The notes under the pieces were generated by a model, which made no database searches, was not told where the DNA came from, and saw nothing but the letters and a program-made list of their open reading frames with translations. Positions 1 through 3,000 of a stretch of DNA of 7,608 bases are shown here, one piece after another. A program made the position numbers and the translations under genes. Numbering within the stretch: the stretch's first letter is position 1; the number at the start of each line of letters is the position of its first letter. Source of the stretch: a virus (lineage: Duplodnaviria; Heunggongvirae; Uroviricota; Caudoviricetes); the IMG/VR virus record IMGVR_UViG_2711768006_000008; one strand, 5' to 3'.

Positions 1-3000
1 CGGATCGTCATACGCTATACCGTTAAAAATAATGGGCGGAATAATAATCTGGCGGTCAAAGTTATGATCATCGCTTATGGTGACTGTAACCGTCCCGTTT
101 GGTGTTTCCGTGTTACCCCACGTACCAGCCTGTTTCGGAAATGATTTGGATACAGCTTTAACGAAGTCACCTCTGACCTGAGTCGCCTCCAGCATGCCCT
201 TAATCGTACAGTTTTCATTTACCGTGACATTGTTGAGCGTCCCGGCGTTCGCATTCACACTGCCACTGATATCCGCATTTTTAGCGGTCAGCTTTCCGTC
301 CGGAGTCAGGGAAAATGCCGATGGATTTCCACCGCTGGTAATGGTGGGGGCCGTCAGGCGTTTCAGGAACACGTCGTTCATGAATATCTGATCGCCCTGA
401 CCAACAAACATCGGTTTTGTGTTGCCATTCGCAGGATTAACCATCGCAATCCTGTCCGCCGCCAGCAGCACCTGACTCTGCATGCCGTCAGGGGTGTTCT
501 CAATACCGGCACCAATACCCGCGATATAAAGGCGTCCGTCCTGCATCTGCTGCAGCTTCACAGCCCACATGCTGTTCAGGTTATTATTTGTATCAACCTG
601 AACCTTCTGTATCTGCTGAATTGCCGCACTCTGGTCTTCCAGTTTCTTATTGACGGTCTGCGTGATTTCATTGCTGACATCCGTAATGGACGTCCTGATT
701 TCAGCCAGGTCAGGCGCAAGCTGACCGTTATCAATCTGCGTCCACAGCTCCTGAGCCAGATGGGTTTTCCCTATCNNNNNNNNNNNNNNNNNNCATCATC
801 ACTCGGCTGACCAACAGCCTCCACGAATGCCGATTTGCCAACGGTGTTCACACTGCGGATATAAAAGTAATAATCATGGCCCGGTTTGATATTGATACTG
901 GCGGCTATCCAGTACAGTGCCGTACCAAGATAACGCGCGCTGGTTTCAACCTGCCTGATATCCGCAATCCGTTTTTCCGAGAACCAGAACTCAAACTGTA
1001 CCGTCGGATCATAAACCGCAAGATGCGGCGTGGCGGTTATCTGAAAATAGCCCGGCGTCAGCTCAATCCGCGACAGCGCTGCCGGTGCGGCAATCCGGAA
1101 CGATACCGACGCCGGATCGCCCTGCTGCCCCCACGCATTTACTGCCCGGACTGTCAGCCTGTAGTTCCCCAGCGCCAGTTGTGTGAAGCGGTAAGTGGTT
1201 TCCGTCGTCCGGGCCGTGCTGACCAGCCGCTCACTACCGTCATCCGCTGTTACGGTCAGACGGAGCAGGAAGCTCACGCCCTTCACCACCTTCGGCGTGT
1301 CCCAGCGGGCCAGTACCTGATACTCCCCGCTGTCTGCGGTGACTTCGGCGGTCAGGTGCTGCACCGCTGGCGGAGTGACACCATTCACCGTGCCGCTCTG
1401 GTCCCCGTCAAAGTGCGCCCCGTTATCCACGATGGCTTCTTTTTCCGGCACATGCTGCACGGCGGTGATGGCATACGTGCCGTCGTCGTTCTCACGGATA
1501 CTCACGCAGCGGAACAATCGCTGGTGCAGCGTCGGCAGCTTCAGCCCCCACACGCTGTATTCAGCAACACCGTCAGGAACACGGCTCACTTTTACCTTCA
1601 CGCCGTCGGTGACGGACTGGACCTCCACGCTGACCGGATTCCCCTGCCCGTCAACCAGGCTTATCAGCGTGGTGCCGGAGGATGGCAGCGTGATTTCACG
1701 GTCGAGCGTCAGCGTCCGGGTCTGGCTGTTCACCGCCAGCACGCGCCCGCCGGTGCGGATACCGGCATAGTCATCATCGCAGATTTCAATGACATCGCCC
1801 GGTACATGACGAAGCCCTTCAGCACCCACGCTGAAATCCACGGTCTGCGTCTCCAGCAGTTCCGTTTTAATCAGCCACAGCCCGGCGCGGTGTGCCTGCC
1901 CCCGGCTGGTACAGCCAAAGGCATCCATCTTCGTGACGTTACGACCGTAACGGACAATGGCCTGCGTATCCTCCACAAGCTCTGTCGCCGTCTCCCAGCC
2001 GTTATCCGGGTCAATCCAGTTCACCTCAACGGCATTATGGCGGTCTTTCAGGGCGCTGAAACTGTAGCGGAACGGCGCGCCATCATCCGGCATCACCACA
2101 TTACTGCGGTTATAGGCCCACACCTTATCCGACTGTCGGTCCTGCACGAACGTCAGCGTCTGCCCGTTCCATACCGGCATACAGCGCATCGCCGAGCAGA
2201 AATCACTGAGCACATCCCACGCCTTGCGCTGTGTGGTCAGCCAGGCATTACAGGTGATGCGCGGCTCCGTGCTGCCAAAGCCGTCCGGCACCGACTGGTC
2301 ACAGTACTGGCCGATGACATACAGCGCCCATTTATCCACATCTGCCGCACCAAGACGTTTCCCCATGCCATAGCGCGGATGGGTCAGCATATCCCACAGA
2401 CACCAGGCCATGTTGTTGCTGTATGCCGGTTTTAACGTTCCGTCCCAGATACCGCTGTATTGCCGCGTCTGCGGATTATAGTTCGACGGCACCTGCAGAA
2501 TGCGCCCGCGAAGATGATAATTACGGCTCACCTGCTGGCTGCCGAACTGCTCCGAATCCACCTGTACGCCGACCAGTGCCGTGTTCGGGTAGCACTGTTT
2601 CACATCGATGATTTCGGTGTATGACGACCAGAGCGTTTTGTTCTGCAGCTGGTCTGTGGTGCTGTCTGGCGTCATCCTGCGCATCCGGATATTAAACGGG
2701 CGCGGCGGCAGGTTATCCACCACCACCGAGGCCAGATACTGCGAGGTGGTTTTGCCCTTAATGGTGATGTCTTTTTCCGTCACCCAGCCACCGTTACGCT
2801 GTATCTGAACCAGCAGGCGAACTTCAGACGGATTCCTGTCTCCCTTTGAGGTGGTTTCCACCAGTGCCTGTACACCGAAGGTAAAACGCAGTCGGTCAAT
2901 GTTTGCCGACGTGATGGTCCGGGTGATCGGCGTGTCATATTTCACTTCCGTACCCAGCACCGTCTCGGAGCCGGAGGATTCAAACCCCTCCGGCGGTGAC

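What the first reader, a model, noticed from the sequence alone, without database searches (positions are those of the whole stretch)
1..775. Distal part of J diverges from lambda J while the N-terminal ~800 residues are near-identical (mosaic host-range region)
Upstream of the 18-N run the protein tracks my recollection of lambda gpJ almost residue for residue. Downstream, blocks still match ([30 protein letters not shown], [27 protein letters not shown]), but they are interspersed with substituted segments ([56 protein letters not shown]; [43 protein letters not shown]). The C-terminal part of gpJ carries receptor recognition in lambda (LamB), so a recombinant distal region suggests a different receptor or host range. 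The actual receptor-binding C-terminus lies beyond the window.
Basis: partly seen in the sequence, partly recalled or inferred. Interest (0 to 1): 0.45.

Follow-up and report, generated by a model that had tools for sequence, protein, structure and literature searches.

The report
Mosaic lambda-like tail-tip gene, 434-type tip
The far end of this prophage's tail-tip gene J is a swapped-in cassette that closely matches phage 434, which uses the porin OmpC rather than lambda's LamB; this kind of swapping in J is real but ordinary and already well documented.

Summary
J lies on the minus strand (start 3224, running off the left end). Residues 1-810 are 95% nt / 97% aa identical to lambda J. After the 18-N run, identity falls to 59%/47% (window 774-403, with a 28-residue insertion in the helical shaft). 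It rises to 92%/92% in a conserved island (402-223, lambda 918-977). It falls again to 56%/47% (222-1).

This is cassette exchange, not gradual drift:
- Phage Chlobot is ~100% identical to about residue 990, then carries another receptor domain.
- Phage 2851 has a 67-78% identical backbone, but its receptor domain is 92-100% identical.

The receptor-domain allele is that of phage 434: 91.9% aa over the 74 residues in the window. In ten loci that are 100% identical over window 1-775, the missing 86 residues are 96.5% identical to 434. Phage 434, and lambda carrying 434's J, use OmpC, so OmpC is the likely receptor. This was not tested here.

About a fifth of complete E. coli genomes carry the same combination. 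J modularity is published (Maddamsetti 2018) and has been exploited (Brödel 2024).

Caveat: both N-runs behave like scaffold gaps. The 18 Ns replace 31 nt and change the reading frame, so the join rests on uninterrupted relatives. Already known; low interest.

The parts
794..3224 (-). J residues 1-810: the tail-tip hub domains plus two Ig/FNIII domains. This is the conserved, lambda-like part of the protein.
   Evidence: Pfam FNIII-A_GpJ, Phage-tail_3, Ig_J and Ig_J_second. NCBIfam lambda_TipJ, 1790 bits, profile positions 1-809. 95% nt / 97% aa identical to lambda J.
776..793 (.). 18-N run that sits on the first identity break. It replaces 31 nt (J residues 811-821, ASGYLDFFKGE) and leaves the two J pieces in different reading frames.
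   Evidence: phi458, L015 and L024 all have 31 nt here. The upstream frame has codon starts at 773 and the downstream frame at 774.
403..774 (-). J residues 822-945: the alpha-helical shaft and the upper part of the central straight fibre, in its long variant (28 residues more than lambda).
   Evidence: 59% nt / 47% aa identical to lambda and to 434. 100% identical to phi458 and Chlobot, and 97% to phage 21. A single-sequence AlphaFold2 model gives helices at distal residues 2-15 and 19-75. Pfam Phage_Tail_Tip begins at distal residue 51.
223..402 (-). J residues 946-1005 (lambda 918-977): a conserved island in the lower central straight fibre. It probably supplies the homology for cassette exchange. 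It contains the lambda-964 fusion point used for engineered gpJ chimeras (window 264-262). It also overlaps the HepS trigger peptide (lambda 902-933, window 450-355; F924 at 384-382).
   Evidence: 92% nt / 92% aa identical to lambda. Identity profiles against Chlobot, 21, 2851 and 434 all switch here or just after. Fusion point from PMC11338833. HepS trigger from PMC13043305.
1..222 (-). J residues 1006-1079: the neck and the first third of the Ig-like receptor-binding domain, phage 434 (h434) allele. The last 86 residues and the stop codon lie beyond the left end of the window.
   Evidence: 91.4% nt / 91.9% aa identical to phage 434 J with no gaps, against 56%/47% to lambda. Pfam Ig_GpJ_C from distal residue 208 (window 153), profile positions 1-47 of 135. 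The C-terminal extension was read from L015 and other loci.
3260..3634 (.). 375-N run in the I-J spacer. It is flanked by two imperfect copies of about 16-19 nt of the I terminator (CGGGCGGTTTTRTCGT).
   Evidence: Close relatives have a 60-nt spacer with no insert. The 25 best complete E. coli genomes span 707 bp for this 1101-nt query.
3679..4350 (-). Gene I (tail-tip assembly protein, 223 aa), the gene immediately upstream of J. Included as context.
   Evidence: ORF list. Pfam Lambda_tail_I on the identical protein. Synteny with lambda.

Best explanation
The window carries the gene for J, the tail-tip and central-fibre protein of a lambda-like prophage. J is built from at least three independently exchanged modules.

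1. Residues 1-~810 form the hub and two Ig/FNIII domains. These dock onto the other tail-tip proteins and are nearly lambda's.
2. Residues ~822-945 form the trimeric helical shaft and the upper beta-prism. Here it is a long variant, also found in phages 21, Chlobot and phi458, with 28 residues more than lambda. That is about 4 nm longer if the extra residues are helical (inferred).
3. Residues ~1006-1165 form the neck and the Ig-like receptor-binding domain. Here it is the allele of phage 434.

Between modules 2 and 3 lies a ~60-residue stretch that is about 90% conserved at the DNA level among otherwise divergent J genes. I infer that this stretch, together with the end of the second Ig domain, supplies the homology at which co-resident or co-infecting lambdoid phages recombine. 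That would move ready-made receptor domains between backbones.

Functionally, the three receptor domains at the fibre tip insert their loops into an outer-membrane porin. Lambda's allele fits LamB. The 434 allele is associated with OmpC, so a virion made from this gene most likely adsorbs to OmpC.

Shown here: the stepwise identity profile, the shared cassettes, and the identity to 434.
Inferred: the recombination mechanism, the OmpC specificity, and the physical continuity of the gene across the 18-N gap.
For: - Stepwise identity to lambda, including at synonymous sites.
- Independent assortment of modules. Chlobot is about 100% nt identical to about residue 990, then 46-59%. Phage 2851 is 67-78% identical in the backbone but 92-100% in the receptor domain. 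Phage 21 is 97% identical in the shaft and 49-57% in the receptor domain. Phage 434 has lambda's short shaft and this receptor domain.
- The receptor-domain allele is discrete. In the phage collection, 74 records are at least 90% identical and all other records are below 60%.
- Identity to 434 is 91.9% aa in the window and 96.5% in the extension, with no gaps.
- Phage 434, and lambda with 434's J, use OmpC (PMC3509688; PMC11101478).
- The distal part aligns end to end with solved lambda J fibre and receptor-domain structures (8xcj/8xck, E = 3.6e-93). The domain layout comes from PMC11101478.
- Functional gpJ chimeras have been built by fusing at lambda residue 964, inside the conserved island (PMC11338833).
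- The 'specificity region' of J is published as an independently recombining module (PMC6646904).
- The indels against lambda fall at about lambda 1012, 1050, 1077, 1103 and 1108-1110, the hot spots that paper describes.
- Uninterrupted copies of the same join exist: phi458, and L015, L005 and L006 at 99-100% identity.
- 1165 of 5426 complete E. coli genomes cover at least 80% of window 1-775.
Against: - The join between the lambda-like part and the distal part falls exactly on an N-run of the wrong length, with a frame change. This window therefore does not itself prove that the two pieces are one intact gene.
- The last 86 residues are known only from proxies.
- Six of 74 receptor-domain residues differ from 434. 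In other J alleles, comparable differences change which OmpC variants are accepted.
- The sequenced lambda h434 imm21 hybrid carries 434's lom and side-fibre genes as well as the distal J. That hybrid alone therefore does not assign OmpC use to J.
- I found no receptor experiment for any phage carrying this exact long-shaft/434-tip combination.
Confidence: 0.82

Rival explanations
1. Assembly chimera. The three pieces of the window (1-775, 794-3259, 3635-7608) are contigs from different lambdoid prophages of one polylysogenic genome, strung together by a scaffolder. The 'mosaic' join would then be an artefact in this record.
For: - Both N-runs have the wrong length. The 18 Ns stand for 31 nt, and the 375 Ns have no counterpart.
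- The flanks of the 375-N run overlap each other.
- The reading frame changes across the 18 Ns.
- J is a typical contig break point in drafts. L024 has N-runs in J, and six IMG/VR loci are J fragments joined by single Ns.
- The piece 1-775 is 100% identical to L015, while the other two pieces are about 99% identical to it.
Against: - The same join, with the same flanking sequence, is present in uninterrupted phage and prophage sequences: phi458, L015, L005, L006, Chlobot and 21.
- It is also present in about a fifth of complete E. coli genomes.
- Even if this scaffold is misjoined, the mosaic gene exists in nature.
Confidence: 0.1
2. In-place divergence. The distal part evolved from a lambda-like sequence by fast, positively selected substitution under receptor co-evolution, without recombination.
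For: - Laboratory lambda evolves new receptor use through point mutations concentrated in residues 960-1132 (PMC6646904).
- The variable zones coincide with receptor-contacting regions.
Against: - Synonymous third positions are near saturation in the variable zones, but about 90% identical in the flanks and the island.
- There are multi-residue indels.
- The same cassettes occur at 92-100% nt identity in backbones that are only 67-78% identical.
- Receptor-domain identities are bimodal: at least 90% or below 60%.
Confidence: 0.03
3. Defective gene. The N-run is length-faithful, so J carries a 13-nt deletion and a frameshift at residue ~811. It would then be a decaying pseudogene of a cryptic prophage, and the distal part would not be expressed.
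For: The frame shifts by +1 across the 18 Ns, and 31 - 18 = 13.
Against: - The distal frame is open for all 258 codons, and it is 100% identical at the DNA level to intact genes.
- The second N-run also disagrees in length with every relative, which points to gap-size estimates rather than real sequence lengths.
Confidence: 0.05

Closest known systems
Phage 434 J, the h434 host-range allele (OL657226; also in lambda h434 imm21, OM418627)
   Same: Same receptor-binding-domain allele: 91.9% aa over the 74 residues in the window and 96.5% over the 86-residue extension in proxies, with the same indel pattern. The hub is also lambda-like (95% nt).
   Different: 434 has lambda's short helical shaft and upper fibre (59.7% nt / 47.9% aa against the window, 28 residues shorter). 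Six substitutions lie in the part of the receptor domain that is inside the window.
Lambda gpJ (NP_040600; structures 8IYK, 8XCG, 8XCJ, 8XCK)
   Same: Same protein family and domain order. Residues 1-810 are 97% identical and the conserved island is 92% identical. The distal part aligns end to end with the solved fibre and receptor domain.
   Different: The shaft and upper fibre are 47% aa identical and 28 residues longer. The receptor domain is 47% aa identical in the window and 33% beyond it, with indels at the hot spots of J variation. Lambda binds LamB.
J of phi458, cdtI, Ayreon, mEp332 and IMG/VR prophage loci (L015 and others)
   Same: The same three-module combination, full length 1165 aa, 97-100% identical over window 1-775.
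   Different: Only scattered substitutions. These are the same gene variant.
Phage 2851 and related Stx phages (J, FM180578)
   Same: The receptor domain is 92-100% nt identical.
   Different: The hub is 73% identical and the shaft 67%. It is a different backbone lineage.
Engineered gpJ chimeras A8 and 1A2 (Brödel et al. 2024), and phi330 / PDB 9wca
   Same: The same design principle occurs in nature: a lambda-type J joined within the conserved island to a foreign receptor domain. These chimeras also use OmpC.
   Different: Their receptor domains are different alleles. The A8/phi330 type is 54% aa identical in the window and 39% beyond it. 1A2 is a third type.

Membership tests
Lambda-type tail-tip attachment protein J (NCBIfam NF049904 lambda_TipJ) | Domain order FNIII-A_GpJ, Phage-tail_3, Ig_J, Ig_J_second, Phage_Tail_Tip, Ig_GpJ_C | tested here: met
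   All six Pfam families hit in that order on the two pieces. lambda_TipJ scores 1790 + 400 bits on the two pieces, against a whole-protein cut-off of 1950.
Lambda-type tail-tip attachment protein J (NCBIfam NF049904 lambda_TipJ) | Position in the tail gene order H-M-L-K-I-J | tested here: met
   The ORFs on the minus strand match the lambda order.
Lambda-type tail-tip attachment protein J (NCBIfam NF049904 lambda_TipJ) | One uninterrupted reading frame of about 1130-1170 codons | tested here: inconclusive
   The frame changes across the 18-N run, and the stop codon is outside the window. Relatives are intact at 1165 aa.
Phage 434 (h434) receptor-binding-domain allele of J | High identity and the same indel pattern as 434 J from about residue 1006 to the C-terminus | tested here: met
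   91.4% nt / 91.9% aa, with no gaps, for the 74 residues in the window. 97.3% / 96.5% for the remaining 86 residues, read from L015, which is 100% identical to window 1-775.
Phage 434 (h434) receptor-binding-domain allele of J | Infection depends on OmpC and not on LamB | not testable with these tools
   Known for 434 and for lambda carrying 434's J (PMC3509688). No experiment was found for carriers of this exact gene. phi458 and Ayreon plaque on K-12 derivatives.
Lambda LamB-binding receptor domain | Near-identity to lambda J residues ~978-1132, including the receptor-contact loops | tested here: not met
   47% aa identical in the window and 33% beyond it. Indels lie at lambda ~1012, ~1050, ~1077, 1103 and 1108-1110.
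A8 / phi330 OmpC-binding receptor domain (PDB 9wca) | Near-identity to the phi330/A8 C-terminal domain | tested here: not met
   54% aa identical in the window and 39% beyond it, with 6 + 5 gap columns.

The most novel reading that the evidence does not exclude
The pairing of a shaft 28 residues longer with a 434-type tip that differs from 434 at a few receptor-domain positions might not be neutral. It could give a different reach through O-antigen or capsule. It could also give a different range of OmpC variants, or even another porin. That might explain why this particular combination is in about a fifth of complete E. coli genomes, including toxin-converting phages.
Probability: 0.12. Interest if true: 0.3.

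Novelty: already known. Interest (0 to 1): 0.12.

Why it matters
It matters little as a discovery. The receptor end of J is already known to be an exchangeable module, and phage engineers already exploit this. This exact gene variant is present in named phages and in many E. coli genomes.

The practical value is in annotation:
- This prophage's tail tip should be read as 434-type and probably OmpC-specific, not lambda-type and LamB-specific.
- The N-runs in this record should be treated as gaps of unknown length, not as sequence-length placeholders.

Tried and rejected
- An exact 102-nt seed from the left end of the window found nothing in genome contigs. The source contig was therefore not recovered. 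The same seed found 14 IMG/VR loci.
- An exact-protein look-up with gpI found a different scaffolded draft (L024), not the source.
- Apparent tandem arrays of J fragments in L003, L004, L009, L010, L011 and L013 looked interesting. They are contigs joined by single Ns and were rejected as artefacts.
- A real insertion between I and J, hidden under the 375 Ns, was considered. The best E. coli relatives have none, and the flanks overlap each other.
- Literature searches for receptors of phi458, Ayreon, mEp332, the PhiR phages and Tritos gave nothing.
- The 2026 receptor-prediction preprint covers the J of Drexlerviridae-type phages only.
- I first suspected the engineered OmpC-binders A8 or 1A2 were this allele. 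Both are different alleles.
- The single-sequence AlphaFold2 model of the 258 residues was poor (mean pLDDT 41). I used it only for the helical shaft.
- Rfam and tRNA scans of the window were empty.

Full report
WHAT IS IN THE WINDOW

The minus strand carries the end of a lambda-type tail operon. It holds the C-terminal part of H, then M (5695-6024), L (4997-5695), K (4248-4991), I (3679-4350) and J. J starts at 3224 and runs off the left end. The order is lambda's. Two N-runs interrupt the record, at 776-793 (18 N) and 3260-3634 (375 N). Rfam and tRNA scans found nothing. The plus-strand ORFs inside 1-775 are short antisense ORFs with no support.

CHECKING THE OBSERVATION

Upstream of the 18 Ns, J gives 810 residues. 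Downstream, the open frame starts at 774, one base out of register with the upstream frame.

Identity to lambda J on a codon alignment is as follows:
- Residues 1-810: 95% nt / 97% aa.
- Residues 822-945 (window 774-403): 59% / 47%, with 28 extra residues.
- Residues 946-1005 (402-223, lambda 918-977): 92% / 92%.
- Residues 1006-1079 (222-1): 56% / 47%.

The mismatch rate before the gap differs from that after it, with chi-square 455 and p = 7e-101. In codons that encode the same amino acid, third positions are about 90% identical in the N-terminal part. They are only 40-55% identical in the variable zones, and about 83% in the island.

EXTENDING TO THE STOP CODON

The source contig was not found in genome contigs. 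A 102-nt seed from the left end hit 14 IMG/VR loci. Ten of them are 100% identical to window 1-775. Wherever the locus reaches the end of J, the continuation is the same 86 residues (...GSGNNPGGTRYTGYGFEVRKNG...TKKAASGISIR*), apart from a one-residue deletion in one locus. L003 and L011 do not reach the end. The full protein is 1165 aa. Over those 86 residues, identity to lambda is 45% nt / 33% aa. Phage phi458 is 99% identical over 1-775 and has the same architecture.

DOMAIN MAP

Pfam places FNIII-A_GpJ, Phage-tail_3, Ig_J and Ig_J_second on residues 1-810. It places Phage_Tail_Tip on distal residues 51-179. It places the receptor-binding domain Ig_GpJ_C from distal residue 208 (window 153), matching profile positions 1-47 of 135. 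NCBIfam's lambda_TipJ model covers both pieces.

The distal 358 residues of the L015 protein align end to end with solved lambda J structures (8xcj/8xck, E = 3.6e-93). The published lambda structure divides J into hub domains, two FNIII domains, an alpha-helical shaft, a beta-prism 'central straight fibre', and an Ig-like receptor-binding domain whose loops enter LamB (PMC11101478). Residues 1-807 form the rigid tip complex (PMC12617516).

On this map, the first break (about residue 811-822) is at the junction between the second FNIII domain and the shaft. The second break (about residue 990-1005) is at the fibre/receptor-domain neck. The 28 extra residues lie in the shaft. A single-sequence AlphaFold2 model is poor overall (pLDDT 41), but it predicts helices over distal residues 2-15 and 19-75. 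If the extra residues are helical, they would lengthen the shaft by about 4 nm; this is an inference.

EXCHANGE OR DRIFT?

I aligned ten J genes and profiled nucleotide identity to the window-type gene.
- Chlobot is about 100% identical up to about residue 990. It then falls to 46-59% and carries another receptor domain.
- Phage 21 is 97% identical in the shaft and 49-57% in the receptor domain.
- Phage 2851 is only 73% identical in the hub and 67% in the shaft, but 92-100% in the receptor domain.
- Phage 434 has lambda's short shaft and this receptor domain.

A tblastn search with the 165-residue receptor region gave a bimodal result. 74 phage records are at least 90% identical, and every other record is below 60%. 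Saturated synonymous sites, multi-residue indels and identical cassettes in divergent backbones all argue for recombination between old alleles. They argue against recent selection acting on a lambda-like sequence.

The conserved island is the obvious homology patch; that it is where the crossovers occur is inferred. It is also where Brödel et al. fused foreign C-termini to lambda gpJ. [quoted passage not shown]

Maddamsetti et al. had already concluded, from 1207 natural homologues, that residues 960-1132 are an independently recombining module. Their comparison of lambdoid phage proteomes included cdtI and Ayreon. They also reported indel hot spots at 1012, 1048-1049, 1077-1078 and 1107 (PMC6646904). 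The indels I find against lambda fall at about 1012, 1050, 1077, 1103 and 1108-1110.

WHICH RECEPTOR?

The allele is not lambda's. It is also not the OmpC-binding A8/phi330 type (PDB 9wca; phi330 needs OmpC, PMC12502783) or the 1A2 type.

It is the allele of phage 434. Identity is 91.4% nt / 91.9% aa over the 74 residues in the window. It is 97.3% / 96.5% over the remaining 86 residues in L015. There are no gaps.

Phage 434 uses OmpC, and lambda in which J was replaced by 434's binds OmpC (PMC3509688; also stated in PMC11101478). OmpC is therefore the most likely receptor.

There are limits to this inference:
- In the sequenced lambda h434 imm21 hybrid, the left crossover is at J residues ~706-712.
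- Its 434-derived DNA continues through lom and the side-fibre gene. That hybrid alone does not separate J from the side fibre.
- Six receptor-domain residues differ from 434.
- In other alleles, such differences change which OmpC variants are accepted.
- No receptor experiment was found for carriers of this exact gene. phi458 and Ayreon do plaque on K-12 derivatives.

THE N-RUNS

In phi458, L015 and L024, the 18 Ns correspond to 31 nt encoding ASGYLDFFKGE. 31 - 18 = 13, which explains the frame change.

The 375 Ns sit in the I-J spacer, which is 60 nt in close relatives. The sequences on either side of the run are two imperfect copies of the same 16-19 nt of the I terminator. The 25 best complete E. 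coli genomes span 707 bp for this 1101-nt query, which equals 1101 - 375 - 19.

Both runs therefore behave like scaffold gaps with wrong size estimates. The first sits exactly where a sequence shared by several prophages gives way to a variable one, which is where short-read assemblies break. This means the window alone does not prove that the two J pieces are contiguous. The claim rests on uninterrupted relatives. A misjoin (about 0.1) or a true frameshift (about 0.05) cannot be excluded.

HOW COMMON?

1165 of 5426 complete E. coli genomes have a place covering at least 80% of window 1-775. That coverage probably requires both the long shaft and the 434-type tip, because megablast needs high identity. 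In the phage collection the receptor-domain allele occurs in phi458, cdtI, Ayreon and many Stx1a-, Stx2a- and Stx2c-converting phages. mEp332 matches window 1-775 at 93.8% nt.

VERDICT

The phenomenon and this very gene variant are already known, so interest is low.

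Noticed in passing
window 776-793: The 18-N run replaces 31 nt in all close relatives and leaves the two halves of J one base out of frame. N-runs in this record are not length-faithful.
   Followed up: yes
window 3260-3634 and flanks 3240-3259 / 3635-3655: The 375-N run lies in the I-J spacer and is flanked by two imperfect copies of the I terminator sequence. Close relatives and the 25 best E. coli genomes have no insert there. 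It looks like overlapping contig ends separated by an over-estimated gap.
   Followed up: yes
L003, L004, L009, L010, L011, L013 (IMG/VR): These loci show what look like tandem arrays of J fragments. Each join carries a single N, so they are short contigs concatenated in the viral collection, not real repeats.
   Followed up: yes
window 355-450 (F at 382-384): The conserved island overlaps the 32-residue peptide of lambda J (902-933, centred on F924) that triggers the Gifsy-1 HepS abortive-infection nuclease. The window keeps the phenylalanine and 24 of 32 residues, so this J would be predicted to trigger HepS.
   Followed up: partly
L018 (phi330), L020 (BP-4795), L022 (phage 2851): I-J spacer: In the second backbone lineage, the annotated gap between I and J is about 200-325 nt rather than 60 nt. 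The phi330 J is annotated as two overlapping ORFs. I did not examine what the extra spacer holds.
   Followed up: no
L030 (lambda h434 imm21, OM418627), locus 2620-2638: The classical h434 hybrid switches from lambda to 434 sequence at J residues ~706-712. It stays 434-like through lom and the side-fibre gene to at least record position 21000. The historical 'h434 allele' is therefore much larger than the receptor domain.
   Followed up: partly
L018 (phi330) J residues ~660-720: There is a short patch of 93-100% nt identity to the window-type J inside an otherwise ~60-85% identical backbone. This is a further small mosaic block within the Ig/FNIII region.
   Followed up: no
L024 (GCA_001248525.1, CWVN01000176.1): This is another draft scaffold of a near-identical prophage, with N-runs at different places in H, J and lom. 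It shows that this tail region is a recurrent assembly problem.
   Followed up: partly
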